Positions 544 to 39,825 of a DNA stretch of 39,825 nt are shown here, in pieces. Both the position numbers and the translations under genes were made by a program. The stretch lies in the sequence record MH031343; one strand, written 5' to 3'. This DNA is from Escherichia phage vB_EcoP_S523. The notes under the pieces were generated by a model. The model worked only from the letters and a program-made list of their open reading frames with translations. It searched no databases and was not told the origin of the DNA. The first letter of the stretch is position 1, and every line of letters starts with the position of its first letter.

Positions 544-566
544 TTTCCCATTAGTGAGTCGTATTG
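544..566 (-). promoter_or_regulatory. phage RNAP promoter (phi1.1B-like), CAATACGACTCACTAATGGGAAA
   Basis: Promoter core overlapping the stop codon of the 185-aa ORF, upstream of gene 1.1. Confidence 0.75.
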
Positions 567-1108
567 TCTGCAACCTTACGTGCAATCTCAATGCGACCCG
601 CTACATCTTTCTTATAATAGGTGAACTCTTTGCGCTCACCGTCAGTGCACGTCTGTGTCAGCAGGTAGCGGTCGGCTTGTTCAACCCAATGTAGACATGT
701 GACTTGCTTACCACATGAGCCGAGACCCAGCTTGAACTCAGTGCGCTTCCATCCAGCATCCGGGATGTGAGCAGTAAACTTGATAGACGTGATGTCACTG
801 TGTGTATACTCACGGATAATCTTCTTGGCTTCTTTAAGTTCCTTGCGGTACTCCACTGCCTCAGCGCGTAGACGCTCAATGAGTTCTCGTTGGTTCGACA
901 TGTCATATTGTTGTTCGAACTCTAAGGTACGGATTCGACCAGCTAGTTCCTGCTTATCTCGCCATCCATCTTCAAGTCTCTCTTTGAGTGCATGAGAGTT
1001 CTTCTCTTCTTTGATTAGCTTAGTGAGAAATACCTTTGAACGATTATAGTATGTTGCTGCAAGAATGGTTGATACGAGAGCGCCTACTGAAGTGATTAAA
1101 GTAAACAT
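551..1108 (-). CDS. hypothetical membrane-anchored protein, 185 aa (N-terminal TM helix, charged coiled-coil, Cys-containing C-terminal domain)
   Basis: ORF with ATG at 1106-1108 preceded by AAGAGGAAA RBS; hydrophobic N-terminus MFTLITSVGALVSTILAATYY; flanked by two phage promoters; no counterpart on the canonical T7 map between genes 1 and 1.1. Confidence 0.6.
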   Translation of the reverse strand: MFTLITSVGALVSTILAATYYNRSKVFLTKLIKEEKNSHALKERLEDGWRDKQELAGRIRTLEFEQQYDMSNQRELIERLRAEAVEYRKELKEAKKIIREYTHSDITSIKFTAHIPDAGWKRTEFKLGLGSCGKQVTCLHWVEQADRYLLTQTCTDGERKEFTYYKKDVAGRIEIARKVADNTTH

Positions 1109-1198: not shown

Positions 1199-3850
1199 TT
1201 AGGCAAACGCAAAGTCTGACTTAAGGATTTCTTGCAGGTCCAGAGAGCCTTTAGCTGGCATCTCAGGCATCTTATCAAGCTGTGTCTCGTGCAACTGGTC
1301 AGCAAATTGCTCATAGAAGTCTGCAAGTACATCGTTCTCTTCGTAAGTGTTGACCATCGTTTCACGCACTGCTTTAAACAGGTTGCCAGCAGCAGCCGGG
1401 ATAGTGCCAAAGGAGTCATGAATCAGTGCGAAGGATTCCACACCGTAGACCTCATTGGAGCGCACTACAGTCATTCTCAGGTGGCTTCCATCCATTGAGT
1501 GGACAAAGTTAGGTGCGATGCCTGACTCCTGTTTACGAGCGTCAATCCCGCTATCTTTGTTGGTGTTCACGGTAGGCTGTAGACGAATCTGGCCTAAGAA
1601 CATCAGGTTCAAGCGGGTCTGTACTGGCTTCTTATATTCCTGCCAGACCGGGAAGCCATCAGGAGTAACCCAATGTACCGCACAGCGCTTACGGAGGACT
1701 TCTTTAGTCTTTTTGTCCTTGACTTCAGCAGCCAGAAGTTTAGCAGCAGACTTCAACCAGTTCATCGCTTCAACCGCTGCGACAACTGTGACCGTTACCG
1801 ATTCCCAAATCAGTTTAGCCATGTAGCCAGCCGCTTGGTTCGGTTGAGTGAACATCAAGCCCTTGCCATCGTCGATAGCTGGCTGAATGGTGTCCTCAAG
1901 AACTTGGTCACGGAATCCGTACTCTTTGGAACCATAAGCCAACGTCATGACCGAACGCTTAGTGACCTTGCGAGTCACACCATAGGCCAGCCACTGACCA
2001 GCTAACTCTTTCGTTCCCAGCTTGAGCTTCTCAGTGATTTCACCAGTGTCCTTGTTTGTCACGGTTTCCACTTCGTTATCAGTGCCGTTGACTACCGCTT
2101 CGCGGAGCATCTCGTTCACACGTTCCGCAACGATTCGGTAGATGTCCTGTACTTCCTTGCTCGGCAGCAGGTTAACCGCACGACCACCAACCTCATCACG
2201 GAGCATCGCGGAGAAGTGCTGAATACCGGAGCAGCTACCATCGAACGCCAGCGGAAGAGAGCAGTTGTAGTTCATCCCGTGGTGTTGCACACCTGCATAC
2301 TCAAAGCAGAATGCGAGGAAGCAGAACGGAGAGTCTTGCTCGGCCCACCAAGTGTTAGCAATCGGGTCAGCCGCAACGCTCATGATGTTCTCATGGTTGT
2401 CATCAATGAACTTGATGCGTTCTGCAAAGTCCACCTTGTCCACGCCAGCAGTGTTAGCACCGTGAATCTTCAGCCAGTAATACCCATCGACACCGATTGG
2501 TTTACCTTTAGCGAGCGTTAACAGACCCTTGGTCATGTCGTTGCCCTGCGGGTTGAACATCGGGACCGCGTACACACGACCGCGCCAGTCCATATTCATC
2601 GGGAACCAGATAGCTTTAAACTGTGCGAACTTATTGGCCTGACCTAACATGAACTCCATGCTCATGCGGCGTGACACTCGTGCCTTCTCTTTGCGGTAGA
2701 TTGCGGAGGCCGCTTTCTTCCATGCTTTGAGTGATGCCTCGTTGGTGTCGATGTCATCAGGTTTGACCGGGAGTTCTCCACGTTCCAGAGCGGGTACATC
2801 TTCAACCGGGCAATGCTTCCAGTTCACAATCTCGTTGACCACTGCCAGAACCTTCTTGTTAATCTTCCAAGGAGTATTCTGTGCGATGTTCACCGCCTTG
2901 TAGACTTCAGGCATATACACATCGTTGTAACGCTCAAGTCCCTTCTTGCTACCAGTGCGAACCAGAGAGAGAGGCTTGCGACCCGCAGCCCAATAGCCAC
3001 CACCGACCGGAGAAGTCCAAGGCTTCGGAGGGACCACGCAAGGCTGATACATCGGAGCGATTGCAGCCAGAGCGCCAGCACGTTTGGATAGCAGGTCTAC
3101 ATATTGTTCTGTTAACTGGATGTACTCGCCATCCTTCTCGATGTTCCCAGCGAACGGGCGGTGTAACTCAACGAGACCAGTAGACCCGATGAGCAGTTCC
3201 AACATGCGCACACCAACGTGAATTGATTCTTCAGGTGTCCATGTAGTCCACTTGGTTTGCAGTTGACCAGCATCAAGCATCTTGCCCTCTACGGCTTGCA
3301 TGAATGCTTTCTTGTAGACGATACCAACGCGCTTGTTCAGTGCCTCCTGTACGTGATTCTTAAAGTGCTTCGCTTCTTCGTCACGGATGCGACCAAAACG
3401 CAGTTCATCCTCAATACTGCGACCAATCTTAGTGGCGACCGATTGCAGGTTGGTGAACTCTTCTTTCGTCAAGCAAGCGAGTGTGACCTTAAGTGTGATG
3501 AATGCAGCAGCTTCAGGTGCAACCTTCTGTACCAGATTGTAGGCTACTGGACGCTTACCACGCTTCGCTTCCACTTCAGTGAACCAAGTGTTCCACGCCT
3601 CGATGAACTTTGGTGCGAGGGATGACAGGAGCGGTTTAGCTACTGCGTTATCACCGAACTCACCCGCTTTGATTTGACGTTCCATTGCCTTTAAGAAACG
3701 TTTCTCACCCTCGGTGTGCGCCTCGTGTTCCAACTCAAGCTGCGTAGCTGCAAGCTGTGCGCCGTAATGGTCAGCCAGAATGTTGTACGGCTGGATTGCA
3801 TTAGCGATGTCAGAGAAGTCATTCTTTGGTGCGTTGATTACGTTAGTCAT
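1199..3850 (-). CDS. single-subunit DNA-directed RNA polymerase (T7 gp1 family), 883 aa
   Basis: Same length as T7 RNAP; conserved motifs (DGSCSGIQHFSAMLRDEVGG, palm/fingers, C-terminal FAFA); position after kinase gene 0.7. Confidence 0.97.
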   Translation of the reverse strand: MTNVINAPKNDFSDIANAIQPYNILADHYGAQLAATQLELEHEAHTEGEKRFLKAMERQIKAGEFGDNAVAKPLLSSLAPKFIEAWNTWFTEVEAKRGKRPVAYNLVQKVAPEAAAFITLKVTLACLTKEEFTNLQSVATKIGRSIEDELRFGRIRDEEAKHFKNHVQEALNKRVGIVYKKAFMQAVEGKMLDAGQLQTKWTTWTPEESIHVGVRMLELLIGSTGLVELHRPFAGNIEKDGEYIQLTEQYVDLLSKRAGALAAIAPMYQPCVVPPKPWTSPVGGGYWAAGRKPLSLVRTGSKKGLERYNDVYMPEVYKAVNIAQNTPWKINKKVLAVVNEIVNWKHCPVEDVPALERGELPVKPDDIDTNEASLKAWKKAASAIYRKEKARVSRRMSMEFMLGQANKFAQFKAIWFPMNMDWRGRVYAVPMFNPQGNDMTKGLLTLAKGKPIGVDGYYWLKIHGANTAGVDKVDFAERIKFIDDNHENIMSVAADPIANTWWAEQDSPFCFLAFCFEYAGVQHHGMNYNCSLPLAFDGSCSGIQHFSAMLRDEVGGRAVNLLPSKEVQDIYRIVAERVNEMLREAVVNGTDNEVETVTNKDTGEITEKLKLGTKELAGQWLAYGVTRKVTKRSVMTLAYGSKEYGFRDQVLEDTIQPAIDDGKGLMFTQPNQAAGYMAKLIWESVTVTVVAAVEAMNWLKSAAKLLAAEVKDKKTKEVLRKRCAVHWVTPDGFPVWQEYKKPVQTRLNLMFLGQIRLQPTVNTNKDSGIDARKQESGIAPNFVHSMDGSHLRMTVVRSNEVYGVESFALIHDSFGTIPAAAGNLFKAVRETMVNTYEENDVLADFYEQFADQLHETQLDKMPEMPAKGSLDLQEILKSDFAFA

Positions 3851-3923: not shown

Positions 3924-5027
3924 TCAGCCTTGCAGTTGTGCGTCAAGTAACTTGTCAATGTTCAGAGGTAGACCCGCTTGGATTGCTAGGCGGTCCCCTA
4001 GTTGCCACTTGAGGCCGTTCACTTGTTCAACCTTGCGGAACGTTGCGTTACCATTATGCAACCATGCGTAATGCCATGCAGACCCCATGAACATCTCGGC
4101 ACGGCGTTCATTTCGGTCAATAGCTCTACGCTCAAGACGCCCTTTGACAAACTGTTGCATTCCTTCCGCTGCATGTTTAGCACGTAACTTACGGTTACGC
4201 TTACGGCGTTTCATTGCTGCCTTGCGGTTAACCTGAAAGGTTCCGTTAGGGTCACACTTAGCCTTACGATTGCGGCACCGTTCAATGATGCGCTCGTTAG
4301 CTATCGCCTCGACCTCGGCAATCAGTGCTTCAGGGTCCAGAGGGAAACCGTCCTCACGTTCACGGTCATGAGAGAAACTAACCGGGTCAGTGATGTAAGC
4401 CACATCGTTCTCATCGAACATGATGTTCCCACTGTGCATGTCGAAAGATGCAATACCGTGGAAGAACTCACGAATCATCTTGCATGTCTCAATGAACTCC
4501 TTGCTAACATACTGTGCGTACCAATCGGCATCGCCTCCAGAGCACTCAATGAACTCCTGCGCAGCACTTGCATACTTTGCGTGCACATCGTTAGCGTAGC
4601 GGTCACAGCTTTGTAAGCGGTCCAGTACGACCGTATAGCAACCTGCATGTCGTGCTACGTGATAGACGTTAGGGATACCCGCTCGGCCTTGGTGCATCCT
4701 ACAGAACGCAGTGTACGCAGCGCCTGAATCCTCTTTCTTAAAGCCAACCTTGATGACTCGGCCCGGTAACAGTTCATGTGAGTAGGCCGCACTAAAGTGA
4801 CCATTACCCAACATGCGGAAACCTGCATCACGCATTAGTGCACCCAAGGTGTGCCAATAGTCCTGATACTCAAGACCCTGCGACCCATCTGTGTCGTTGC
4901 CATCGCTTGTCTCACCGTTCACGATGTCAGCAGCCAGTGCAACCAGAAGAGGCTGGCGCTTGTCCAGTTCACTAATCGGGAGTGACTTGATGATTGCCAG
5001 ACGTGCCTGAATGTCGGTGTAGTTCAT
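3924..5027 (-). CDS. gp0.7-like serine/threonine protein kinase / host transcription shut-off protein, 367 aa
   Basis: Kinase core resembling T7 gp0.7 (GNGHFSAAYSHELLPGRVIKVGFKKEDSGAAYTAFCRM, FDMHSGNIMF); located between gene 0.3 and gene 1. Confidence 0.85.
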   Translation of the reverse strand: MNYTDIQARLAIIKSLPISELDKRQPLLVALAADIVNGETSDGNDTDGSQGLEYQDYWHTLGALMRDAGFRMLGNGHFSAAYSHELLPGRVIKVGFKKEDSGAAYTAFCRMHQGRAGIPNVYHVARHAGCYTVVLDRLQSCDRYANDVHAKYASAAQEFIECSGGDADWYAQYVSKEFIETCKMIREFFHGIASFDMHSGNIMFDENDVAYITDPVSFSHDREREDGFPLDPEALIAEVEAIANERIIERCRNRKAKCDPNGTFQVNRKAAMKRRKRNRKLRAKHAAEGMQQFVKGRLERRAIDRNERRAEMFMGSAWHYAWLHNGNATFRKVEQVNGLKWQLGDRLAIQAGLPLNIDKLLDAQLQG

Positions 5028-5131
5028 TAGATTGTGTCCTTTAAGAGAGAAGATTGTGAGAGTGTTATTTCATGAAGATAATACAGAGCGTAGGCCATAC
5101 AACGAAGACCATGTAGAAGCCGAAATTGCGT

Positions 5132-5329
5132 TTAATGTGTTGCAACATAGAAGATACCAACCTTGTTAGCCTTAAAGCGCCCGTTGCGTTCACGGACTGT
5201 GAATCGTGGTAGAAAGCCATACTTCAGGTGCGAGAAGTTAGCCTTGTGTACCTTGAGACCCGTTGTGAAGTCTCGAAGGAAGTACGCCCCAATCAGAGCG
5301 TACACCGTGATTACAAAGAGTGCGACCAT
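5132..5329 (-). CDS. small hydrophobic early protein (gene 0.4-0.6 region), 65 aa
   Basis: ORF immediately downstream of gene 0.3 with hydrophobic N-terminus; weak RBS; function unknown. Confidence 0.35.
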   Translation of the reverse strand: MVALFVITVYALIGAYFLRDFTTGLKVHKANFSHLKYGFLPRFTVRERNGRFKANKVGIFYVATH

Positions 5330-5330
5330 G

Positions 5331-5789
5331 TTATGCTACCTGCCAGTATTTGCCGAACTCATCGACCGTGAAGCAGCCTTGGATTGGTGCACCTTTAGGG
5401 ATGCGCTGGAAACTACCCGACAAACGTTCAGCCTTATAGCCGTCAATGCCTTTAGCGTACACTAAGCCAGCCGTGTGAGTCTGTGACTTATAGACCAGTA
5501 CGCAATCTTGTTCCCACTCATTACAGGCCAGTCGTGCGACATTAAGAACCTGTGCCTTGTCTTTACAACGTACACGGATTGTTTTCTCTTCAGTCGGTGC
5601 ACTTGAGATGGCTTCGCGGTAACAGCCAGTTAAATCGGTAGACTCAACGCTACCATAAAGACCCGGTGCGTTGCGCAGGTTGTTAACCATGTGGCGGTGG
5701 CGACTCATGTTGACCTCATCGTCGAGGTTAGAACGGAATGCGCTTACCAGTACATAGAAAACATTAGCTTGCTCTTTAGTGTGAATCAT
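5331..5789 (-). CDS. gene 0.3 S-adenosylmethionine lyase (T3-type SAMase, anti-restriction), 152 aa
   Basis: First gene downstream of the early promoters; ATG at 5787-5789 with AAGGA RBS gives 152 aa; not acidic like T7 Ocr; resembles recalled T3 SAMase (ANVFYVLVSAFRSNL, CNEWEQDCVLVYKSQTHTAGLVYAKGIDGYKAERL). Confidence 0.65.
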   Translation of the reverse strand: MIHTKEQANVFYVLVSAFRSNLDDEVNMSRHRHMVNNLRNAPGLYGSVESTDLTGCYREAISSAPTEEKTIRVRCKDKAQVLNVARLACNEWEQDCVLVYKSQTHTAGLVYAKGIDGYKAERLSGSFQRIPKGAPIQGCFTVDEFGKYWQVA

Positions 5790-5973
5790 GATGATTTCCT
5801 TAGTTGCAGTGATTATCATAAAGGCTTCTCTTTCGAGTCACCTTGAGTTAATCGCTGTTGTCGTCGTCATCTCAAGAGTGCTTATTGTCCAAATTGTTAA
5901 AGAGCTTTAAGTGCAGGTTTGTTAGCACCGAGTCACTTTCAGTGTGTGACCTCACAAGAACGCTATGTCGTAC

Positions 5974-6003
5974 ATCTTACATCTTGTTGCTACTGCATGT
6001 CAA
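5974..6003 (-). promoter_or_regulatory. sigma-70-type early promoter, TTGACA-N18-TAAGAT
   Basis: Minus-strand -35 TTGACA (6003..5998) and -10 TAAGAT (5979..5974); same hexamers as recalled T7 A2. Confidence 0.6.
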
Positions 6004-6068: not shown

Positions 6069-6097
6069 ATACTACGTTATTGCTTTCGTTGAGTCAA
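6069..6097 (-). promoter_or_regulatory. sigma-70-type early promoter, TTGACT-N17-TAGTAT
   Basis: Minus-strand -35 TTGACT (6097..6092), 17-nt spacer, -10 TAGTAT (6074..6069). Confidence 0.6.
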
Positions 6098-6319: not shown

Positions 6320-6342
6320 ATTCTCAATAGTGAGTCGTATAA
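6320..6342 (-). promoter_or_regulatory. phage RNAP promoter (phiOL-like, left end), TTATACGACTCACTATTGAGAAT
   Basis: Match to T7 promoter core ACGACTCACTAT on minus strand, upstream of the host-type early promoters. Confidence 0.55.
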
Positions 6343-6479
6343 AGGCTATTGACTATAAGCCAGCTTTAAGGCACTATAAGCACTCAGTCAATTCTACTTG
6401 TCTCTCTCATTACTCAGAGACTGCTAAACAGAGTAAGATAGTGATTCTCTTAGTGACGTAGCCTACTGGTCACTGATAA

Positions 6480-6930
6480 ACATAAGGCACCGACTGAAGG
6501 TTAACATAAGGATAGCCAGCCATAAGGATAGACATAAGGTGTTAACTCTAAGAGGTCATAAGGTGTTAACTCTAGGGTCACTTACAGATAGGGACACAGA
6601 GAGGTCCACATATAGTATCATTAAGTCACTCTAAGCCCTATATCTAGTGGTAACACCTAGAGTTAACCCAATGTCACACATAAGGATTGACATTAAGTAA
6701 ACCATAAGTTACCATAGGGGCGCTCTCTTTGAGTGGACTGAAGGAGGCCATAGGGGGGGAAACACTTTGTATGAACTATGAGATACCCTCTCAGATTTTT
6801 CTGTAGGATTCTTAAAGGGGGTACATCAAGTCTCATAAGGTTAACCACAGAGGCTCTATCATAAGGTGAGACTACGTGAGAGACCCTAAGAGACCCTGTA
6901 GACCATAGAGAGTGGTACATAAGGGGTTAC
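6480..6930. repeat. terminal-region short repeat array (about 12 copies of CATAAGG-like motif; minus-strand CCTTATG) spanning the inferred concatemer junction
   Basis: Recurrent cataagg / ccatagg / tcataaggtgttaactcta motifs between phiOL and gene 19.5; analogous to the CCTAAAG repeats of the T7 left end. Confidence 0.55.
6771..6783 (-). other. inferred mature genome left end (minus strand begins TCTCATAGTTCAT...); terminal repeat collapsed to one copy
   Basis: Reverse complement of 6771..6783 is TCTCATAGTTCAT, followed by CCCCCCC-TATGG; resembles the recalled T7/T3 genome start TCTCA(C/T)AG... and lies between the last late gene and phiOL. Confidence 0.4.
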
Positions 6931-9212: not shown

Positions 9213-9770
9213 TTACTCGGCAGATTTCTCTAAGGCAGCAATGCGCTTCTCAAGAGCCTTGATAGTGTCGGTCTTAGACACAGCCCCGTCGATGTTACTA
9301 GGTTGGAACATAACGGAAGCGCTCTTCCCTTCGCTGTCCACGAACTGTGTACCAAATGCACTATCAGACGCAGAAAGCGTTGCATTGACTAATGAAGACA
9401 CACCACCTTCCGGTTCAGGGTCAGCACCAGTCCACTCTTTGTATACGTCGATTCGAACCATACCGAGCCGCTCAGTGCTTTGCTCATTCAGGAACACCGT
9501 CATGAACCCGCTACCCGGTTTAGACTCGACGGAGCCGCCCCAAGTGGACATAAGGGTCTCGAACGTAGCATGTTGCTCAGTGGTGCCATCACTCAGTTGG
9601 ATAACGTATTCAACCTTAGAGTAGCCATCAACCTTAACCATCTCCGAAGCTGGGATGTCGATACGCCCAACACGAATGCCAATATTGTTGCGGTCATACA
9701 CATCACGACTGTCTGGTGAGCGACCATTGATGGTCCAGAGTGTGCGGGTTCTTGAGTTTGTAGTAGCCAT
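9213..9770 (-). CDS. hypothetical protein, 185 aa, between the spanin genes and the terminase large subunit gene
   Basis: ORF with ATG at 9768-9770 and AAGGAG RBS, packed tightly between gene 18.5 and gene 19; no TM segment; C-terminal heptad-like KALEKRIAALEK; no T7 counterpart at this position. Confidence 0.6.
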   Translation of the reverse strand: MATTNSRTRTLWTINGRSPDSRDVYDRNNIGIRVGRIDIPASEMVKVDGYSKVEYVIQLSDGTTEQHATFETLMSTWGGSVESKPGSGFMTVFLNEQSTERLGMVRIDVYKEWTGADPEPEGGVSSLVNATLSASDSAFGTQFVDSEGKSASVMFQPSNIDGAVSKTDTIKALEKRIAALEKSAE

Positions 9771-10829: not shown

Positions 10830-12854
10830 TTATTGGGTTTGAACTAAGATTCTCGTAGGTACAGAACTACGGTCAGCATCATTACGGAAAGTTCTCCCGT
10901 TGTTGGAGATTGTGAACTGTAACCACCCGCCCATAGAAGAGATGTAGTATGCACCGTTATCACCAATCTGAACAGGGTTCCAGCGTCCTCGAGTTTGAAT
11001 CCAGATGGTTCTCCATCGGACATCCTGTGAGAGACCTACGGATACCCCACCACCAGCGGAACCTTTCCACACCTCAGCCCAGCCAGCATTCTTACGAATG
11101 TATCGACCGTCAGCGGCACCTTGGGTTAAACGACCATTAACTAGGTTGTTCACCTCTCTTTTGTTATAGGCATGTTCACCAAGGCGTTTGTTGACCCAAC
11201 CGTCGATGTAAGAATCATACTTCTTGATGTATAAGTTACCATCTGCCGCAATCTGCCACCCCTTACTACTTGCCAATGCGCCTTGAATAGTCATTGTAAG
11301 GGCATGTTCATTACCGCCATCCCCCTTGAGTTGGATGATACCATCGTGGAAGTTGTTGCTACCCTTGGATACCATACCGATGGAGAATGCCGCCGGATAA
11401 CCATTAGAGCGTCTACCATATTGTTTAATCATAGGGTAATACACGTTGCCATCCTGATTTCCGGGGAGGCTTTGCGAGTAGGGGGCATTGTTATTCAACT
11501 GGTTTGCGAACCCTCCTGACCCAAAAGTTGACTCAGTGTAGAATCGCTCATCAGCCCTGATATACTTAGATACTCGAAGATAACCATCCATAGATACGTT
11601 CTGGTAGAACCGTGAATCATGGTGAGAGTGGAATCCACCGTAGAAATCGTGGCGTCCGTTCCCATTGGAGCGACCATCAGGCCACTTAGATGGGTCCGTG
11701 TTTGTAAACACATAGTAGTCCATGCGTTTTGGTCCGGCCTGAATCCACTGTTCCCAAACAGTCTCCTTACTGCCCTCCCCACGCCATTGGGTCCACACCA
11801 AGTCAACTGGCTGTGTACCAGCACCTTTTGCATCATTTCGCAACGTAAAGTCCTTACCAGATACTTTGCGCTTGAAGTAAACATCAGGAGCCTCAACCCT
11901 GTCGATAGCCTCAGCTAGTGAGTTCATATTACCCAACTTGTCAGCCTCAGCCTTAGCACGGTCAGCCTCACCTTTGGAGCGGTTTGCCTCAGTGTTGGCT
12001 CGGTCAGCATGTCCCTTAGCGGTCTCAACATGTGCAGCAGCTTTGGCAACCTCAGCAGCAGCTTTAGTCACTTCTCCGGCAGCACGATTGGCCTCATCAC
12101 GGGCACGATTGGCCTCAGAGTTGGAACGGTCAGCTTGCTTCTTGGCCTCAGCGACACTTGCGGTCATACTATCAGCATAACCTTTAGCTCGGTTAGCCTC
12201 AGAGTTGGAACGGTCAGCTTGCTTCTTGGACTCAACTGCTTGTTGCGTAGAGACACCTGCCTGTTGCGTTGAGCGGTCAGCTTCACGTTGAGCACGGTTG
12301 GCCTCATCACGAGAACGGTTTGCTTCCTTATTGGCCCTGTCAGCGTGTTCGTTAGCTTTTGTTACGGCATTCCATGCAGAGGATTCACGCTCTTTAACCT
12401 GCTTTAAAGGAACGGCATCATAGTCACTTGTGGCATACGCCAAGTTAACAATCTTACGACCACGAGCATCTAAGTGACCGTCATTGTTGACACCAATGGT
12501 ATCCGCAGTGAGGTCTCGTGCTTCTTCAGCAACATGCAGTGTTTGAATCTGCGAGATGTTCAGGTCATATGCACGGAGGATTGAGCCATCAGCAAGGTCA
12601 ACCAGACGATCAGTAGCCGAAGTGAATCGACGAATCTCAATCATCTGGTAGCCATCAGCGGCAGTCCACGCACGGGTAGTAGTAATTTGAGTCTTACTGG
12701 TAAAACGATAGTCCTGATTGAGAACCAGTTCTTTACGGTCTTTACCAATAAGTGTCACTTGGATGAACTTACGTGCCAGATAATCAAAGGTAATCGTGAA
12801 ATTCACGGCACCATTCAGCGGGTAAGTCATCACAGTACGAATCTTGTTAGCCAT
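10830..12854 (-). CDS. tail fiber protein (gp17), 674 aa, with extended shaft and distal domain
   Basis: N-terminal about 150 aa and C-terminal about 90 aa match T7 gp17 (FEYLARKF..VTLIG, GSAGGGVSV..SQD); central ADRxNxEANR repeats; about 120 aa longer than T7 gp17 (553 aa). Confidence 0.9.
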   Translation of the reverse strand: MANKIRTVMTYPLNGAVNFTITFDYLARKFIQVTLIGKDRKELVLNQDYRFTSKTQITTTRAWTAADGYQMIEIRRFTSATDRLVDLADGSILRAYDLNISQIQTLHVAEEARDLTADTIGVNNDGHLDARGRKIVNLAYATSDYDAVPLKQVKERESSAWNAVTKANEHADRANKEANRSRDEANRAQREADRSTQQAGVSTQQAVESKKQADRSNSEANRAKGYADSMTASVAEAKKQADRSNSEANRARDEANRAAGEVTKAAAEVAKAAAHVETAKGHADRANTEANRSKGEADRAKAEADKLGNMNSLAEAIDRVEAPDVYFKRKVSGKDFTLRNDAKGAGTQPVDLVWTQWRGEGSKETVWEQWIQAGPKRMDYYVFTNTDPSKWPDGRSNGNGRHDFYGGFHSHHDSRFYQNVSMDGYLRVSKYIRADERFYTESTFGSGGFANQLNNNAPYSQSLPGNQDGNVYYPMIKQYGRRSNGYPAAFSIGMVSKGSNNFHDGIIQLKGDGGNEHALTMTIQGALASSKGWQIAADGNLYIKKYDSYIDGWVNKRLGEHAYNKREVNNLVNGRLTQGAADGRYIRKNAGWAEVWKGSAGGGVSVGLSQDVRWRTIWIQTRGRWNPVQIGDNGAYYISSMGGWLQFTISNNGRTFRNDADRSSVPTRILVQTQ
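12112..12229 (-). repeat. in-frame direct repeat inside tail fiber shaft region (34-nt identical copies at 12112..12145 and 12196..12229, 84 nt apart)
   Basis: gcctcagagttggaacggtcagcttgcttcttgg occurs twice; encodes repeated KKQADRSNSEANRA. Confidence 0.7.
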
Positions 12855-27368: not shown

Positions 27369-27382
27369 TTAGCGCCTCCTTG

Positions 27383-27747: not shown

Positions 27748-28023
27748 TTATTTCTTCTTAAAGACACTGGTACGGATACCAGACTTGGACTTCTTCTTGG
27801 CAGCATCGGAGTCTGCCTTCTTGGACTTCTCAACGGAGTCATCCAGTTTCACCTTCAGGGACTTCTTGCCACCCGTTGGCACCTCAGAAGAGGTTCCGCT
27901 ATCATTGTCCTCTTCGCCACCAAAGAGAATACCTTTCGGTTCTTCCGTCAGTGGCGCAGGGTCGATAGCTCGGATGGATTCAGTCTTTACTTTAGGTGTC
28001 TTAATCTTTGGCGAAAAGCACAT
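27748..28023 (-). CDS. gp6.7-like virion protein, 91 aa
   Basis: N-terminus MCFSPKIKTPK... as recalled for T7 gp6.7; position after gene 6.5. Confidence 0.75.
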   Translation of the reverse strand: MCFSPKIKTPKVKTESIRAIDPAPLTEEPKGILFGGEEDNDSGTSSEVPTGGKKSLKVKLDDSVEKSKKADSDAAKKKSKSGIRTSVFKKK

Positions 28024-28038
28024 AAGACCTCCATACGA

Positions 28039-28284
28039 TTAGGACTCAGCCTGTTCCTTACGGATTGCCTCCATGTCGTCCAGAGTTTGAGACGCATAGT
28101 TGAGACCCGCGAGGAACCCAGCGATGTAGCTTTCAGACCATCCAGCCTGTTTCAATCGGTTGATTAGTCCTGACTGAATAGCATATCCAGCATTGTATTG
28201 AACCTGTAGGTACTCCATAGTTGCACGAGGCACATTAGGAATATCTTGTGGGTTCTCCATATACTTCTTGATAGGGGTTAACAT
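28039..28284 (-). CDS. gp6.5-like protein, 81 aa
   Basis: ATG at 28282-28284 with AAGGAGAA RBS just downstream of a phage promoter; MLTPIKKYMENPQDIPNVPRATMEYLQV...; the track ORF is an upstream extension. Confidence 0.65.
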   Translation of the reverse strand: MLTPIKKYMENPQDIPNVPRATMEYLQVQYNAGYAIQSGLINRLKQAGWSESYIAGFLAGLNYASQTLDDMEAIRKEQAES

Positions 28285-28358: not shown

Positions 28359-28386
28359 ATTTCACTGTCGAGAAGAATGCCTAGAG

Positions 28387-28473
28387 TTACACACTCTTAG
28401 CTATAAATGCAGCCCACACCATAGCGAAGGCTACGATTGCGAACATTACGAACGCAACTGTTCCGGCGACCAT
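28387..28473 (-). CDS. gene 6.3-like small hydrophobic protein, 28 aa
   Basis: Hand-translated MVAGTVAFVMFAIVAFAMVWAAFIAKSV; AAGGAG RBS; overlaps the 3' end of gene 6. Confidence 0.3.
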   Translation of the reverse strand: MVAGTVAFVMFAIVAFAMVWAAFIAKSV

Positions 28474-29360
28474 AGGTAAATCTCCTTGTCGATAAAGTTG
28501 TACTCTTCGAATCGAAGTATGCGAGCCATCTGGCCTTGCTTAATGATTTCCTCTTCGGTCATCCCAGCTTTTGCACCAAGTGTCACAATGGCTTCCCATA
28601 GGGTTCGCTCACCCATGTCAACCTTTTTCCATTCGAGAACTGTCTGTCCCTTACGAGCACCAGACTTGAAAGTTTTCTCAACCTGTTCAAAGGCATACGG
28701 GTTCTCCAGCCACTCAGCGGTAGTCTCTCCCCAGCCCGGAATGCCACCATAGCCATCTGTCAAGTCACCTTTGATGGTCTGATAGATGTGCCAGTAGTCG
28801 GCAGTCGTCTGGTCTTGAGTCAAGATGTTACCAGTGGTACACCACAAGAAGTCACAATCAGGGATGGTCTTAAAGTCCTTATCACAGGAGACCAGCACAG
28901 CCTTCTTGAAACCAAAGTGTTTAGCACCAGACCCAATGATTCCCATTACGTCATCGCCCTCAAGTCGGTCCTCAAGGATAGACGTCCAGTCCTCACAGGC
29001 TTGAACACGCTCGACGAACGCACGGTAGCCTACAGGCTTACGGGATGCCTTACGGTTCTCCTTATAGGTTGGGTCCACCAGTTCCTTACGCCAGTTCACA
29101 GAGTCAGTGAAGGCCAATACGATAGGTGCATCACGCCAAGCCTTCTTACGGCTCGCATAGGACTTGATAGAGTCAACCAGAATGTTCCACGCTTTCCCAT
29201 GGTCACACTCTAAGGTCCACACATCGTCACCCCAATCGGTCTCGACTTCACTTGCTGCCATCGCTTGGAACACCAGCCAGTCACCATCCATTACGAGAAC
29301 ACCCTTATCGGATTTCCCTTGGCGTAACTCGTAGAACTCCTTCAGTGTAATTGCGCTCAT
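28446..29360 (-). CDS. 5'-3' exonuclease (gp6), 304 aa
   Basis: ATG at 29358-29360 gives MSAITLKEFYELRQG...GVLVMDGDWLVFQAM, colinear with T7 gp6; upstream part of track ORF is an extension. Confidence 0.9.
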   Translation of the reverse strand: MSAITLKEFYELRQGKSDKGVLVMDGDWLVFQAMAASEVETDWGDDVWTLECDHGKAWNILVDSIKSYASRKKAWRDAPIVLAFTDSVNWRKELVDPTYKENRKASRKPVGYRAFVERVQACEDWTSILEDRLEGDDVMGIIGSGAKHFGFKKAVLVSCDKDFKTIPDCDFLWCTTGNILTQDQTTADYWHIYQTIKGDLTDGYGGIPGWGETTAEWLENPYAFEQVEKTFKSGARKGQTVLEWKKVDMGERTLWEAIVTLGAKAGMTEEEIIKQGQMARILRFEEYNFIDKEIYLWSPEQLRS

Positions 29361-29566
29361 ACGCAACCTCCCATCTTCTTCAGGAATCGGACACCAGAGC
29401 CTGTTACTTCCCAAGCGCCAGCATTACGCCCATCGACTGATAGGCAAGAGATATGACCACGACTCGCAGCCTCAGCCACCAGTGACGCATTGTTGCGCAC
29501 ATAGTTCGACTGAAAGGTCTTAGGGCAGCTTTTGATAGCCGCCAGTACACGTAGATATTCACCCAT
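29357..29566 (-). CDS. gp5.7-like protein, 69 aa
   Basis: Same length as T7 gp5.7; position between gp5.5 and gene 6; overlaps gene 6 start by 4 nt. Confidence 0.6.
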   Translation of the reverse strand: MGEYLRVLAAIKSCPKTFQSNYVRNNASLVAEAASRGHISCLSVDGRNAGAWEVTGSGVRFLKKMGGCV

Positions 29567-29850
29567 TACTTCACCTCACGGATAGTTGCTGGAGAAACCT
29601 TCAGACCATCTTCCGGTAACTCGGTACGAATGAACTCTCGCATACCCTGTTTGGCGGCAAATGAGATAGCACCCTCGACACCATGAGTCAGCGCTTGTAC
29701 CAGAAGTTCACGGTCACGGGGACTAATCTTCTCACCAGCCGCAGCCTTCTTAGCCAAGTGAACCAGTTCCTCAGTGAATCCTTCCTCCATCTCGGAGGTG
29801 ATTACAGCGGTGACTTCGAATGATACTTTAAAGCGTTTAGTAATAGCCAT
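29566..29850 (-). CDS. gp5.5-like protein (T7 gp5.5 binds host H-NS), 94 aa
   Basis: MAITKRFKVSFEVTA... resembles T7 gp5.5 N-terminus; position downstream of the HNH gene. Confidence 0.65.
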   Translation of the reverse strand: MAITKRFKVSFEVTAVITSEMEEGFTEELVHLAKKAAAGEKISPRDRELLVQALTHGVEGAISFAAKQGMREFIRTELPEDGLKVSPATIREVK

Positions 29851-30172
29851 GATATTTCTCCTTTGCTTCTAATGTGATGACCTTCCGCTCTCGGTTGGTC
29901 TTGATTACGTGTTCCCGCTTGGGGATACACTGTAGGTGCTCTACGTTACAGCACCCACGGTTTAGGCATAGATGGTCTATCTCATACCCTTCTGGTATCT
30001 TTCCGTGGACGTTCTCCCACACGAATCGGTGGAACATGAAAGCAACCTTCTCACCCTTGCGGGACGAGCCTATGCTATACCGGAAGTACCCATCTTTGTT
30101 CCTCTTATGGGAGACGCAGACGATACAGCCAGTCGGCATAGTGTGAAACCTAAGCGTAGCAACGCCTCCCAT
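29837..30172 (-). CDS. HNH family endonuclease (homing-endonuclease-like; same position as T7 gene 5.3), 111 aa
   Basis: His-Me finger signature FHRFVWENVHGKIPEGYEIDHLCLNRGCCNVEHLQ with flanking Cys pairs; strong RBS AAGGAGGT; wedged between DNA polymerase and gene 5.5 with a 14-nt overlap. Confidence 0.8.
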   Translation of the reverse strand: MGGVATLRFHTMPTGCIVCVSHKRNKDGYFRYSIGSSRKGEKVAFMFHRFVWENVHGKIPEGYEIDHLCLNRGCCNVEHLQCIPKREHVIKTNRERKVITLEAKEKYHGYY

Positions 30173-37697: not shown

Positions 37698-38069
37698 TTA
37701 AGCATAGCACTTACCTTTGTGTTTCTCGTACAGTTCACCATAGAACCCAGCTTTCGCCATGTCCTTCTCTAAGAATGCTAGTTCAGATTTCTTACCAGCA
37801 CGTAGGCGATACTTAAGGATGTTCCCTAAGCAGTACCCTTTGAACTGTTCACGGGTCATCGACCGGGCAATCACTTCGATAGCCTCAATGTCGTCAAACA
37901 ACATATAGTGGCTCGGAGTACGAACATCATCTATATCTTGTGGTTTGTCTGACTTAGTGCAACTACATACACCAGCGCCATTCCAGATTGTACACTCACT
38001 GGTGTGCTTTGTTTTGCAGGTATGCGGGTAGCGGTCATCTTTCTCTAAACATGCTATGCAACCAGACAT
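37698..38069 (-). CDS. gp1.7-like protein (T7 gp1.7 is a nucleotide kinase), short form, 123 aa
   Basis: Conserved CIACLEKDDRYPHTC and PSHYMLFDDIEAIEVIARSMT..FKGYC.GNILKYRLRAGKK relative to recalled T7 gp1.7, but lacking about 70 central residues. Confidence 0.75.
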   Translation of the reverse strand: MSGCIACLEKDDRYPHTCKTKHTSECTIWNGAGVCSCTKSDKPQDIDDVRTPSHYMLFDDIEAIEVIARSMTREQFKGYCLGNILKYRLRAGKKSELAFLEKDMAKAGFYGELYEKHKGKCYA

Positions 38070-38510: not shown

Positions 38511-38693
38511 CTACATGTTGGCGTGAAGATATGCCTTTACCTCGGATATGCTTCTACACTCTTTCTGTGTGAAGTAATCCCACTTGCGTCCATAAGAGGC
38601 TGGGTCGTCTCCCTCAGACCACTTCAGGATGTGGAATACCTGTAAGTGTGGGTGTTGCCATACCTTCCAAATGCCTTGGTCAAAGATTATCAT
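38511..38693 (-). CDS. hypothetical protein, 60 aa, immediately downstream of ligase
   Basis: ORF MIIFDQGIWKVWQ...; start overlaps ligase stop (TAATG); lies before the TE-like terminator. Confidence 0.4.
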   Translation of the reverse strand: MIIFDQGIWKVWQHPHLQVFHILKWSEGDDPASYGRKWDYFTQKECRSISEVKAYLHANM

Positions 38694-39739
38694 TACATCT
38701 TCTCCGTTGGGTTATCTTCAGTACCACGGAACATAACGAACGATGGGTGACGCAGAGAACCATCAGGAGTTTCCTCCATGTAGGCAACCTGACACGCCCA
38801 ATTCATATAAGGCGCTGGCTTCATGCCATCCTCAGTGGTCTCCCACTTGGTGTACGCTTCGGTAAACTCATCCATCAGAGCGCGAGAGATGTTTGTGGCG
38901 TTAACTACACGACCACTCTCAAGAAGCACTTCGAATCCGATAATCTTACCTTCGTTAGCCAAGCCGGGAGTTCCCCAGCAGTATCCAATGACCTCACCAT
39001 CAGCTTCACTCTCAGGCTTCATCTTCCACCAGCCAGACTTCTTACCACGCTTGTAGACTTCCAGCGGGTCTTTGACAACCAGACCTTCATGACCATCGGC
39101 GCGAGCTTTCTCGTAGAGTTCCTGAAGTTCTACCATGTCGTAGACTTCTTTGGCCTCAGAGAGTTCCCAAGTGATTTCCGGGAAGTGTTCACTAAGAACC
39201 GGAATGAGGGAACGCACATGCTCTTGCATCAGGAGGGACATAACGCCGTACTCTTTGCCTTCTACCATATCGTGATACGGCATAGCAGCATACAAGACAA
39301 CCTTCAGGCGCTGTGGGTCTAACTCAAACGGCTGTTTGTTCTTCTTCCACTCTTCATGGAAGTATTCGCTGGTGGAGTGCACGAAGTTTGTGGCCTTGAG
39401 CCACTTGGTTCTCAGTAGGCCAGACCCTGTGTTGAAGTCTACGCCTTTGACCATGAGTTCGCCATCCAGCATAAAGCCATCAGGGAAAATCCAGCGGTCA
39501 TCTTTGAGAACATTAGCCCAGCGTTGGTCGAACCCATTAAGGTGCTCAAGCGCGGGGATGGTCTTGGAGACACGGGACAGCCACAGGCAGTCAGCCGTAT
39601 TGTCAACCACGATGTTACCACGTACACCATCATGCTTAGTGTCAGCAATCAGGTAGCCAGCCTTGTCGAGTGCTTTCTTAATGGCAGACTCAACGTAGGA
39701 TACTGCTTTGAACGGCGAAGTCTTAAATGTGATTTCCAT
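38693..39739 (-). CDS. ATP-dependent DNA ligase (gp1.3), 348 aa
   Basis: Catalytic lysine motif KHDGVRG (T7: KYDGVRG) and conserved PFKAVSYVESAIKKALD, GSLRHPSFVMFRGTEDNP..EKM. Confidence 0.95.
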   Translation of the reverse strand: MEITFKTSPFKAVSYVESAIKKALDKAGYLIADTKHDGVRGNIVVDNTADCLWLSRVSKTIPALEHLNGFDQRWANVLKDDRWIFPDGFMLDGELMVKGVDFNTGSGLLRTKWLKATNFVHSTSEYFHEEWKKNKQPFELDPQRLKVVLYAAMPYHDMVEGKEYGVMSLLMQEHVRSLIPVLSEHFPEITWELSEAKEVYDMVELQELYEKARADGHEGLVVKDPLEVYKRGKKSGWWKMKPESEADGEVIGYCWGTPGLANEGKIIGFEVLLESGRVVNATNISRALMDEFTEAYTKWETTEDGMKPAPYMNWACQVAYMEETPDGSLRHPSFVMFRGTEDNPTEKM

Positions 39740-39775
39740 GATGGAACTCCTTTAGTGTGTCGGTTAATAAGTAAT

Positions 39776-39825
39776 CAAAAGTTAATCACAAAGGCCACCC
39801 GTGAAGATGACCTTTAGTTTAACTC
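39776..39825 (-). promoter_or_regulatory. conserved ~50-nt structured element (putative RNase III processing site, R1.3-like); copy A, continuing into window start
   Basis: aaaagttaatcacaaaggccacccgtgaagatgacctttagtttaactc; last 19 nt identical to window positions 1..19; lies between the phi1.3-like promoter and the ligase RBS. Confidence 0.45.

What the first reader, a model, noticed from the sequence alone, without database searches (positions are those of the whole stretch)
5331..5789. Mosaic early region: T3-type SAM lyase gene 0.3 with a T7-type transcription system
Gene 0.3 encodes a 152-aa protein resembling the T3 S-adenosylmethionine-degrading anti-restriction enzyme rather than the acidic DNA mimic Ocr of T7, yet the RNAP and promoters are T7-like. 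Compared with the T7 map there is also no gene 5.9 (gene 5.7 overlaps gene 6 directly), no gene 7 or 7.7 (gene 7.3 abuts gene 8), and a shortened gp1.7. This indicates a recombinant lineage within the T7/T3 group.
Basis: partly seen in the sequence, partly recalled or inferred. Interest (0 to 1): 0.4.

Follow-up and report, generated by a model that had tools for sequence, protein, structure and literature searches.

The report
Ordinary SAM lyase gene, BA14-like phage
The gene is a well-conserved copy of the phage T3-type enzyme that destroys the host's S-adenosylmethionine to escape restriction and BREX defences, sitting in a normal BA14-like (genus Berlinvirus) T7-relative whose gene set has been described since 2008, so it is ordinary rather than a new T7/T3 hybrid.

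Summary
Window 5331-5789 (minus strand) encodes a 152-aa protein that matches Pfam S-AdoMet_lyase (E 1e-43). It is 89.5% identical to the solved T3 SAMase, and every known catalytic and MetK-binding residue is kept. There is no Ocr, gene 5.9 or gene 7, and no gene at the 7.7 position. gp1.7 is short. All 16 phage promoters are T7-like at positions -12 to -5.

The interpretation, a recombinant T7/T3 lineage, is mostly not supported. The window is a complete, permuted, reverse-complemented genome of the genus Berlinvirus. Its intergenomic similarity is 89-90% to BA14, 285P, CarlSpitteler and BSP161, but only 53-54% to T7 and to T3. Its RNA polymerase is equally far from T7 (76%) and T3 (75%). 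BA14 and 285P carry the same distinctive gene layout.

Synonymous sites of gene 0.3 against T3 are near saturation (pS 0.60), as in other genes, so the high protein identity reflects purifying selection and not a recent transfer. Against the BA14 clade pS is 0.08-0.18, which fits co-inheritance with the backbone.

One part of the "mosaic" idea holds. Across Berlinvirus the 0.3 slot is a swap site: SAM lyase alleles of 67-99% identity, SAM lyase plus Ocr, or nothing. That is a genus-wide pattern, not a feature of this genome. The combination was reported for Kvp1 (2008) and in the BASEL study (2021).

The parts
5331..5789 (-). Gene 0.3: S-adenosylmethionine lyase (T3 SAMase family), 152 aa plus stop.
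   Evidence: ORF. Pfam PF23780, E 1e-43. PDB 7OCK/8BB1, E 4e-92. 99.3% aa identity to BA14 and Kvp1 gp0.3 and 89.5% to T3. Residues T4, N9, E68, Q94, D95, Q103, T104, H105 and T106 are conserved.
5797..5802 (-). Shine-Dalgarno sequence TAAGGA, 7 nt upstream of the gene 0.3 ATG.
   Evidence: Read from the sequence. The GAGG/AAGG motif sits at the same place in T3 and BA14.
5840..5880 (-). Leader hairpin CTCTTGAG...AACTCAAGG, homologous to the annotated T3 RNase III site R0.3.
   Evidence: Both stem arms are conserved in the window/T3/BA14 alignment. The hairpin appears in the MFE fold, although the region as a whole folds no better than shuffles. T3 annotates R0.3 at 822-875. Function is inferred by homology only.
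5974..6003 (-). Sigma-70-type early promoter (TTGACA-18-TAAGAT), the counterpart of A3 in T7/T3.
   Evidence: Consensus scan, 10 of 12 matches. It aligns with the T3 A3 region. The count of such sites is not above shuffles, so the assignment rests on position and homology.
6069..6097 (-). Second sigma-70-type early promoter candidate (TTGACT-17-TAGTAT).
   Evidence: BA14 annotates four host promoters in the equivalent stretch.
6320..6342 (-). Phage promoter phiOL (TTATACGACTCACTATTGAGAAT).
   Evidence: Identical to the annotated BA14 phiOL.
6590..6783 (-). Approximate position of the terminal repeat and genome ends, present once in this permuted assembly.
   Evidence: Both ends of BA14 (1-306 and 38986-39816, with a 194-bp terminal repeat) map onto this single stretch.
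5132..5329 (-). Gene 0.6 (65 aa), starting 1 nt after the gene 0.3 stop.
   Evidence: 65% aa identity to T3 gp0.6 and 89-98% to BA14-clade homologues. phrog_2385.
3924..5027 (-). Gene 0.7 protein kinase (367 aa).
   Evidence: 53-54% aa identity to T7 and T3 gp0.7 and 96% to CarlSpitteler.
1199..3850 (-). Gene 1, single-subunit RNA polymerase (883 aa).
   Evidence: 76.0% aa identity to T7, 74.8% to T3, 98-99.7% to Berlinvirus RNAPs. The specificity loop has the T7-type Asn748.
5043..5808 (-). The module that differs from T7: SAM lyase plus 0.6 here, ocr-0.4-0.5-0.6 in T7. Both flanks are homologous.
   Evidence: blastn homology to T7 ends at window 5808 (T7 900, 25 nt before the ocr start) and resumes at window 5043 (T7 2005, 16 nt before gene 0.7).
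29357..29360 (-). 4-nt overlap of genes 5.7 and 6. There is no gene 5.9.
   Evidence: ORF coordinates. T7 and T3 gp5.9 give no tblastn hit. BA14 and 285P have the same junction.
27369..27382 (-). 14-nt spacer between gene 7.3 and gene 8. There is no gene 7, and no gene at the 7.7 position.
   Evidence: T3, BA14 and 285P have the same arrangement.
37698..38069 (-). Short gene 1.7 (123 aa), C-terminal DUF3310 part only.
   Evidence: 98% aa identity to the 372-nt BA14 ORF.

Best explanation
What it is. Gene 0.3 of a BA14-like Berlinvirus, a T7-relative of the subfamily Studiervirinae. It encodes a T3-family S-adenosylmethionine lyase.

How it most likely works:
1. It is the first gene downstream of the left-end host-RNAP promoters, so it is transcribed by the host polymerase as soon as the genome enters the cell. 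This is inferred from position and from homology to T3 and T7.
2. The protein cleaves SAM to 5'-methylthioadenosine and homoserine lactone.
3. Through its N-terminal tail and the beta4-beta5 loop it binds and inhibits the host SAM synthetase MetK.
4. [quoted passage not shown]

Shown versus inferred. The activity steps were shown for the T3 enzyme. They are inferred here from 89.5% identity and conservation of all mapped functional residues.

Evolution. The gene is the native allele of the BA14 clade, inherited together with the backbone. Its combination with T7-like promoter specificity is the normal state of this clade, not a recent T7 x T3 recombination.
For: Family and residues:
- Pfam S-AdoMet_lyase, E 1e-43.
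- T3 SAMase structures 7OCK/8BB1, E 4e-92 over residues 1-151.
- E68, Q94 and D95 (SAM binding and catalysis) are identical. So are T4, N9, Q103, T104, H105 and T106 (MetK interface). Only 16 of 152 residues differ from T3. Residue roles come from PMC7877911 and bioRxiv 10.1101/2023.02.27.530186.

Selection:
- dN 0.09, the lowest of 35 genes compared with T3.

Expression context:
- SD sequence, conserved leader and sigma-70-like promoters upstream.

Lineage:
- Intergenomic similarity is 89-90% to BA14, 285P, CarlSpitteler and BSP161, against 53-54% to T7 and T3.
- Per-gene identity is 90-100% to the BA14 clade and roughly equal to T7 and T3.
- The 16 promoters are equivalent to the 16 annotated in BA14.
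- SAM lyase pS against the BA14 clade is 0.08-0.18, at or below the RNAP value of 0.18-0.28.
- BA14 and 285P annotations show the same gene layout.

Literature:
- Kvp1 has 'T3-like Gp0.3, 0.6 and 0.7' (PMC2579914).
- In the BASEL study, all Studiervirinae genera other than Teseptimavirus carry a SAM hydrolase at the gp0.3 locus (PMC8594841).
Against: - No biochemical or genetic test was done on this protein.
- The N-terminal tail has F3H and P7Q. F3 is listed among the MetK contacts in T3, so MetK affinity could differ.
- The promoter scan finds no more sigma-70-like sites than shuffled sequence does. The early-promoter assignment therefore rests on homology.
- No phage record in the collection reaches 95% identity genome-wide. 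The exact genome is not a described species in that collection.
Confidence: 0.9

Rival explanations
1. This genome is a recombinant lineage in which a T3-derived gene 0.3 was joined to a T7-derived transcription system.
For: - gp0.3 is the protein most similar to its T3 counterpart: 89.5%, against a typical 50-83%.
- The promoters share positions -12 to -5 with T7, and the RNAP has Asn at T7 position 748.
- Relative to T7, the ocr-0.6 block is replaced precisely between conserved flanks.
Against: - The RNAP is 76.0% identical to T7 and 74.8% to T3, while T7 and T3 are 82% identical to each other. The polymerase is therefore an outgroup to both, not T7-derived.
- For gene 0.3 against T3, nucleotide identity is 79.8% and pS 0.60 (dS about 1.2), as saturated as the other genes.
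- Genome-wide similarity is 53% to T7 and 54% to T3.
- The same combination occurs across the BA14 clade.
- SAM lyase is found in 490 records of several genera.
Confidence: 0.05
2. An ancient cassette exchange. The 0.3 slot of Studiervirinae is a hot spot where anti-defence genes are swapped between genera. On this reading the BA14-clade SAM lyase allele was acquired horizontally long ago and has since been inherited vertically.
For: - SAM lyase and RNAP identities are incongruent. Berlinvirus RNAPs are 96-100% identical, but Berlinvirus SAM lyases are only 67-99% identical, and the BA14-type allele is as close to T3 (89%) as to WW1 (88%).
- pS at gene 0.3 against WW1, P151, A7 and PcCB251 is 0.48-0.67, against 0.28-0.38 at the RNAP gene.
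- The WW1 allele is an intragenic chimera.
- Berlin lacks the gene. P151 and A7 carry SAM lyase plus an Ocr-like or 'antirestriction' gene. The Teseptimavirus IME15 carries SAM lyase plus an ocr-like gene.
Against: - The direction and timing of any transfer cannot be read from pairwise distances.
- The low dN of the gene can by itself explain the 89% identity to T3.
- This is a statement about the genus, not about this window. It does not conflict with the best explanation.
Confidence: 0.5
3. An assembly artefact. The window is a chimeric contig joining reads from two co-occurring T7-like phages.
For: The window is circularly permuted and reverse-complemented, with the terminal repeat collapsed to one copy. 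It is therefore an assembler product rather than a mapped linear genome.
Against: - It is collinear with BA14, 285P, CarlSpitteler and BSP161 over 96-97% of its length at about 92-93% identity.
- The gene 0.3 region and its flanks match the same clade at similar identity.
- All genes are intact.
Confidence: 0.02

Closest known systems
gp0.3 of Escherichia phage BA14 (EU734171) and Kluyvera phage Kvp1 (FJ194439), with 285P, FE44, BSP161 and CarlSpitteler: the SAM lyases of the BA14 clade of Berlinvirus.
   Same: - 98.7-99.3% amino-acid and 95-97.6% nucleotide identity.
- Same length (152 aa).
- Same position: first early gene, followed 1 nt later by gene 0.6.
- Same promoters, and in BA14 and 285P the same surrounding gene layout.
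   Different: - One or two substitutions, e.g. S124 here against H, Q or P in the others.
- The genome as a whole is only 89-90% similar. It differs in the usual variable modules: kinase allele, gp5.5 allele, the HNH gene at the 5.3 slot and the tail-fibre tip.
Bacteriophage T3 SAMase (gp0.3; PDB 7OCK, 8BB1), the founding member of the family.
   Same: - 89.5% identity over the full length.
- All mapped catalytic and MetK-contact residues except F3.
- Homologous leader with the R0.3 hairpin and the early promoters.
   Different: - 16 substitutions, clustered in the N-terminal tail (F3H, P7Q), residues 36-40 and the C-terminal 30 residues.
- The host genome belongs to a different genus. The RNAPs are 75% identical and promoter specificity is T7-like rather than T3-like.
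T7 Ocr (gp0.3), the DNA-mimic inhibitor of Type I restriction and BREX.
   Same: Same genomic slot, same timing and the same defence targets. The flanking leader and the gene 0.7 junction are homologous (PMC8594841).
   Different: No sequence similarity (best tblastn E 1.5). The mechanism is different: DNA mimicry rather than cofactor destruction.
Svi3-3 and Orf1, environmental phage SAM lyases (PMC7877911).
   Same: Same reaction (SAM to MTA plus homoserine lactone) and the equivalent Glu/Gln substrate-binding residues, according to the paper.
   Different: Sequence similarity is barely detectable. [quoted passage not shown] They did not appear among the PDB sequence hits.

Membership tests
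T3-type S-adenosylmethionine lyase (Pfam PF23780 S-AdoMet_lyase) | Full-length sequence match above the curated family threshold. | tested here: met
   148.9 bits against a cut-off of 28; E 1e-43; profile positions 1-132 of 133. phrog_2226, E 1e-54.
T3-type S-adenosylmethionine lyase (Pfam PF23780 S-AdoMet_lyase) | SAM-binding and catalytic residues E68, Q94 and D95 (T3 numbering; shown by mutagenesis in PMC7877911 and bioRxiv 2023.02.27.530186). | tested here: met
   All three are identical in an ungapped alignment with T3.
T3-type S-adenosylmethionine lyase (Pfam PF23780 S-AdoMet_lyase) | MetK-binding residues that are strictly conserved among close homologues: T4, N9, Q103, T104 and H105. 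| tested here: met
   All are identical, as are I2, K5, A8 and T106. The contact residue F3 is H here.
T3-type S-adenosylmethionine lyase (Pfam PF23780 S-AdoMet_lyase) | Enzymatic cleavage of SAM to MTA plus homoserine lactone, and anti-restriction / anti-BREX activity in vivo. | not testable with these tools
   Needs a TLC, HPLC or NMR assay and plating on EcoKI+ or BREX+ hosts.
T3-type S-adenosylmethionine lyase (Pfam PF23780 S-AdoMet_lyase) | First early gene downstream of the left-end host-RNAP promoters. | tested here: met
   It is the first ORF after phiOL and the sigma-70-like sites, with a leader homologous to those of T3 and BA14. Promoter activity is inferred.
Ocr (T7 gp0.3 DNA mimic) | Sequence similarity to T7 gp0.3 anywhere in the genome. 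| tested here: not met
   tblastn best E 1.5 over 14 residues, inside the RNAP gene.
Genus Berlinvirus (BA14 / Berlin / Kvp1 group) | At least 70% genome-wide nucleotide similarity to members of the genus (ICTV criterion as quoted in PMC13600099). | tested here: met
   90.0% to 285P, 89.7% to BA14, 89.1% to CarlSpitteler, 88.9% to BSP161 and 78-82% to Kvp1, WW1, PcCB251, P151 and A7.
Genus Berlinvirus (BA14 / Berlin / Kvp1 group) | Same species as a described member (at least 95% similarity). | tested here: not met
   The highest computed value is 90.0%. No record falls in the 95-99% band for either genome half in the 50,697-record collection.
T7 x T3 hybrid phage (for example T7M or laboratory T3/7 recombinants) | Alternating segments near-identical to T7 and to T3. 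| tested here: not met
   No gene exceeds 83% aa identity to T7 or 90% to T3. Synonymous sites are near saturation throughout. Similarity is 53-54% to both.
T7-type promoter specificity | Promoter positions -12 to -8 read CGACT, paired with Asn at RNAP position 748. | tested here: met
   10 of the 16 promoters carry ACGACTCAC and the other 6 are variants. There are no T3-type CCCTC promoters. The specificity loop reads RLNLMFLGQ as in T7. The -1 base is T, not A.
T7-type promoter specificity | Cross-recognition of T7 promoters by this polymerase. | not testable with these tools
   [quoted passage not shown] I did not read the primary source.

The most novel reading that the evidence does not exclude
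The most novel reading still open is that the BA14-clade allele behaves differently from the T3 enzyme. Its changed N-terminal tail (F3H, P7Q) and distinct C-terminal 30 residues could alter MetK binding or host range. In addition, the alternative states of the 0.3 slot within one genus (SAM lyase alone, SAM lyase plus Ocr, neither) may reflect selection by different host defence repertoires. That would make Berlinvirus a natural experiment on anti-defence cassette turnover.
Probability: 0.15. Interest if true: 0.4.

Novelty: already known. Interest (0 to 1): 0.1.

Why it matters
It matters little beyond correct annotation.

- The gene should be named S-adenosylmethionine lyase. RefSeq and PHROGs propagate 'SAM-dependent methyltransferase', and many records say 'hydrolase'. 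Both are misnomers given PMC7877911.
- The genome should be filed as a Berlinvirus of the BA14 clade, possibly a new species by the 95% rule.
- For phage-therapy or host-range work, the gene predicts resistance to Type I restriction-modification and BREX.
- The wider point of some interest concerns the genus, not this window. Within one genus with near-identical RNA polymerases, the 0.3 slot holds different anti-restriction solutions.

Tried and rejected
- Recent transfer of gene 0.3 from a T3-like phage. Tested with Nei-Gojobori synonymous and non-synonymous divergence for 35 genes and for SAM lyase against RNAP in 12 genomes. Rejected: pS is 0.57-0.62 against T3-like phages.
- A T3-type promoter hidden somewhere in the window. 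None is found within 3 mismatches of the T3 consensus.
- An Ocr, gp5.9 or gp7 homologue relocated elsewhere in the genome. tblastn with word size 2 and E up to 10 gave only chance hits.
- RNase III site R0.3 by folding. The conserved hairpin appears in the MFE structure, but the 126-nt stretch folds no better than shuffles (z 0.13). I rely on homology to the T3 annotation instead.
- Sigma-70 promoter scan. It gives no more hits than in shuffled sequence and is used only as positional support.
- Whether the window is phage 6phi10 of PMC13600099. It is not: that genome is 40,100 bp and has different similarity values.
- Not used, because the answer was already clear at 89.5-99% identity to characterised proteins: structure prediction, fold search, the large protein-database searches and the contig-collection scans.

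Full report
**What is at the coordinates**

All genes of the window lie on the minus strand. Window 5789..5331 is an intact ORF of 152 codons ending in TAA. A TAAGGA Shine-Dalgarno sequence lies 7 nt before the ATG. The ORF could be read 10 codons longer from an upstream ATG, but no homologue uses that start.

The product matches Pfam PF23780 (S-AdoMet_lyase) at E 1e-43, 148.9 bits against a cut-off of 28. It also matches PHROG 2226. In the PDB its only match is the T3 SAMase, chains of 7OCK and 8BB1, at E 4e-92 over residues 1-151. An ungapped comparison with T3 gp0.3 shows 16 differences in 152 residues.

I translated every annotated T7 and T3 gene and searched the window with a permissive tblastn.

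- Nothing resembles Ocr (best E 1.5), T7 gp0.4, 0.5, 0.6A, gp5.9 (E 0.47) or gp7 (E 0.44).
- The only gp7.7 hit is HNH-domain similarity to a different gene at the 5.3 slot.
- Gene 5.7 overlaps gene 6 by 4 nt.
- Gene 7.3 ends 14 nt before gene 8.
- gp1.7 is 123 aa and keeps only the C-terminal DUF3310 part.
- Sixteen minus-strand sites fit TAATACGACTCACTA[A/T]TGGGAGA. No site lies within three mismatches of the T3 consensus.
- The RNA polymerase specificity loop reads RLNLMFLGQ as in T7 (Asn748). T3 has RLDMIFLGQ.

**What the genome is**

The window is a complete T7-like genome, reverse-complemented and circularly permuted. It is cut between genes 1.2 and 1.3, and the terminal repeat is present once, near 6590-6783.

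- The gene 0.3 DNA is 95-97.6% identical to FE44, CarlSpitteler, Kvp1, JSS1, 285P, BP12A, BA14 and BSP161.
- Both halves of the genome find the same group at about 90-94% identity. No record lies above 95%.
- These phages are classified in the genus Berlinvirus.
- A VIRIDIC-style intergenomic similarity is 90.0% to 285P, 89.7% to BA14, 89.1% to CarlSpitteler and 88.9% to BSP161. It is 78-82% to Kvp1, WW1, PcCB251, P151 and A7.
- Similarity to T7 is only 53.0% and to T3 only 54.0%.

**The 'unusual' gene set is the normal one for this clade**

The BA14 record (2008) annotates:

- a 459-nt gene 0.3;
- a 198-nt gene 0.6A;
- a 372-nt ORF in the 1.7 position;
- gene 5.7 overlapping gene 6, with no 5.9;
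- 7.3 followed directly by 8;
- 16 phage promoters with the same sequences as found here.

285P has the same layout. The gene layout and the genus are already described, although the window stays below the 95% species line against everything I compared.

**Is it a T7/T3 recombinant?**

No.

- Per-gene protein identities to T7 and to T3 are nearly equal for almost every shared gene. Examples: RNAP 76.0 / 74.8%, DNA polymerase 74 / 74%, gp8 80 / 83%, gp19 81 / 81%.
- T7 and T3 RNAPs are closer to each other (82%) than either is to the window's polymerase.
- The transcription system is therefore T7-like in specificity-determining positions only, and it belongs to a third lineage.
- PMC13600099 cites cross-transcription work in which the BA14 system was functionally distinct from those of T7 and T3. 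I did not read the primary source.

**Why gp0.3 is so similar to T3**

At 89.5%, gp0.3 is the protein most similar to its T3 counterpart. I tested whether that reflects recent transfer.

- Against T3, nucleotide identity is 79.8%. The proportion of synonymous differences is 0.60 (dS about 1.2), inside the range of the other genes (0.51-0.9).
- dN is 0.09, the lowest of all 35 genes compared.
- Against four other T3-like or T7-like SAM-lyase carriers, pS is 0.57-0.68, close to the RNAP values of 0.65-0.70.
- Against BA14, CarlSpitteler and BSP161, pS at gene 0.3 is 0.08-0.18. That is at or below the RNAP values of 0.18-0.28.

The high identity to T3 is therefore purifying selection on an old gene. 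In this clade the gene has travelled with the backbone.

**Where 'mosaic' is true**

The SAM lyase is not a T3 marker. tblastn finds it in 490 phage records, all about 37-44 kb T7-like genomes, from Klebsiella, Salmonella, Escherichia, Vibrio, Pectobacterium, Yersinia and other hosts. One of them is IME15, a member of T7's own genus, which also has an ocr-like gene.

Within Berlinvirus the RNAPs are 96-100% identical, but the 0.3 slot varies:

- BA14-type SAM lyase, 99% identical to the window's;
- WW1-type, 88%;
- A7- and P151-type, 82%;
- PcCB251-type, 67.5%;
- no gene at all in phage Berlin, where the flanks are retained.

P151 carries an intact SAM lyase ORF that is not annotated in the record, followed by an Ocr-like gene. 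A7 carries an 'antirestriction protein' gene upstream of its SAM lyase. For these phages, pS at gene 0.3 (0.48-0.67) exceeds pS at the RNAP gene (0.28-0.38). WW1's allele joins a P151/A7-type body to a BA14-type C-terminal tail.

Relative to T7, homology stops 25 nt before the ocr start and resumes 16 nt before gene 0.7. The exchanged module is therefore sharply bounded, at about window 5043-5808.

Other variable modules behave the same way:

- gene 5.9 (present in Kvp1, Berlin, WW1 and P151);
- the gp5.5 allele;
- gp1.05;
- gp4.7;
- the HNH gene at the 5.3 slot;
- the tail-fibre tip.

This is the ordinary intra-genus mosaicism of T7-like phages. It is not specific to this window.

**Mechanism**

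The mechanism is shown for T3 and inferred here.

- T3 SAMase is a lyase that forms MTA and homoserine lactone. E68 is the equivalent of the substrate-orienting Glu69 of Svi3-3 (PMC7877911).
- E68Q/Q94A is catalytically dead but still binds MetK and inhibits BREX.
- MetK contacts involve M1-K5, A8 and N9 of the N-terminal tail, and Q103, T104 and T106 of the beta4-beta5 loop.
- T4, N9, Q103, T104 and H105 are strictly conserved among homologues of at least 30% identity (bioRxiv 10.1101/2023.02.27.530186).
- PMC8406200 reports inhibition of the host SAM synthetase through heteropolymers.

In the window's protein E67, E68, Q94, D95, I2, T4, K5, E6, A8, N9, Q103, T104, H105 and T106 are all identical to T3. 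Among the listed contacts only F3 differs, being H here.

The gene follows phiOL and sigma-70-like sites. Its leader aligns with those of T3 and BA14, including the hairpin annotated in T3 as RNase III site R0.3. I therefore expect immediate early expression by host RNAP, SAM destruction together with a block of SAM synthesis, and escape from Type I restriction-modification and BREX. Confidence in the functional assignment is about 0.9. The untested points are the activity itself and the effect of F3H and P7Q on MetK binding.

**Prior knowledge and verdict**

- The Kvp1 paper (2008) states that Kvp1 'encodes T3-like Gp0.3, 0.6 and 0.7 homologs' and that its promoters are most like those of phage Berlin (PMC2579914).
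- The BASEL study (2021) states that at the gp0.3 locus Teseptimavirus isolates encode Ocr, and all other Studiervirinae genera, Berlinvirus included, encode a T3-like SAM hydrolase (PMC8594841).

The finding is therefore already known and low in interest. The genome itself is at most a new species-level member of a well-sampled genus.

Noticed in passing
L008 (Escherichia phage P151, PP083182) 27822-28280 and 28363-28725: An intact 152-aa SAM lyase ORF is not annotated in the record. It lies directly upstream of an annotated Ocr-like gene, so this Berlinvirus carries both anti-restriction genes in tandem. Its C-terminal 30 residues are identical to those of T3.
   Followed up: partly
L010 (Shigella phage A7) 38113-38984; L013 (Stenotrophomonas phage IME15) 870-2194; L007 (Yersinia phage Berlin) 850-1280: The 0.3 slot takes other states in relatives. 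A7 has an 'antirestriction protein' gene upstream of its SAM lyase. IME15, in T7's own genus, has SAM lyase plus an ocr-like gene. Berlin has neither, but retains both flanks.
   Followed up: partly
L006 (Yersinia phage WW1) 8634-9092: The WW1 SAM lyase looks like an intragenic recombinant. Roughly the first 120 residues are of the P151/A7 type, and the C-terminal tail (RIPKGAPIQGCFTVDEFGKYWQVA) is of the BA14/window type.
   Followed up: partly
window 29837-30172 (-): An HNH (HNH_3) endonuclease gene of 111 aa sits between genes 5 and 5.5 and overlaps the start of 5.5. It is 84% identical to T3 gp5.3 and 99% to PcCB251. It is absent from BA14, 285P, CarlSpitteler and BSP161, and megablast finds it in only 8 phage records. 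This patchy distribution is what a homing endonuclease would show.
   Followed up: partly
window 10830-12854 (-), especially 10833-11957: The tail fibre gp17 (674 aa) has a Berlinvirus N-terminal half, but its C-terminal half is at best 86% identical to that of E. coli phage P483 and 81% to EG1. It matches the closest genome relatives only at 47-60%. This is a swapped receptor-binding tip and suggests an E. coli-type host.
   Followed up: partly
window 6476-6800 and both window ends: The window is a circular permutation, cut between genes 1.2 and 1.3, and is reverse-complemented. Both BA14 ends map to one stretch, so the roughly 194-bp terminal repeat is collapsed to one copy and the physical genome should be about 40.0 kb. 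Short 'ccttatg'-type repeats follow the repeat region, as at the left end of T7-group genomes.
   Followed up: partly
window 9213-9770 (-): A 185-aa ORF lies between genes 18.5 and 19 (phrog_20446, unknown function, no Pfam match). It is present in BA14, 285P, CarlSpitteler and BSP161. It is absent from Kvp1, WW1, P151, PcCB251, A7, T3 and T7.
   Followed up: no
window 38511-38693 (-): A 60-aa ORF directly after the ligase gene is 100% identical in 285P and BSP161 and has no tblastn match in the other nine genomes compared, T3 and T7 included (phrog_6957, unknown function).
   Followed up: no
annotation of homologues: RefSeq records and PHROG 2226 label this family 'SAM-dependent methyltransferase', and many GenBank records say 'SAM hydrolase'. 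Published biochemistry (PMC7877911) shows the enzymes are SAM lyases, so both names are propagated misnomers.
   Followed up: no
window 3924-5027 (-), 29566-29850 (-), 551-1108 (-): Alleles of the kinase gp0.7, gp5.5 and gp1.05 match different Berlinvirus relatives. gp0.7 is 96% to CarlSpitteler but 75% to BA14. gp5.5 is 97-98% to BSP161, 285P and Kvp1 but 55% to BA14 and CarlSpitteler. gp1.05 is 97-99% to BA14, 285P, CarlSpitteler and Kvp1 but 53% to BSP161. This shows routine intra-genus module shuffling.
   Followed up: partly
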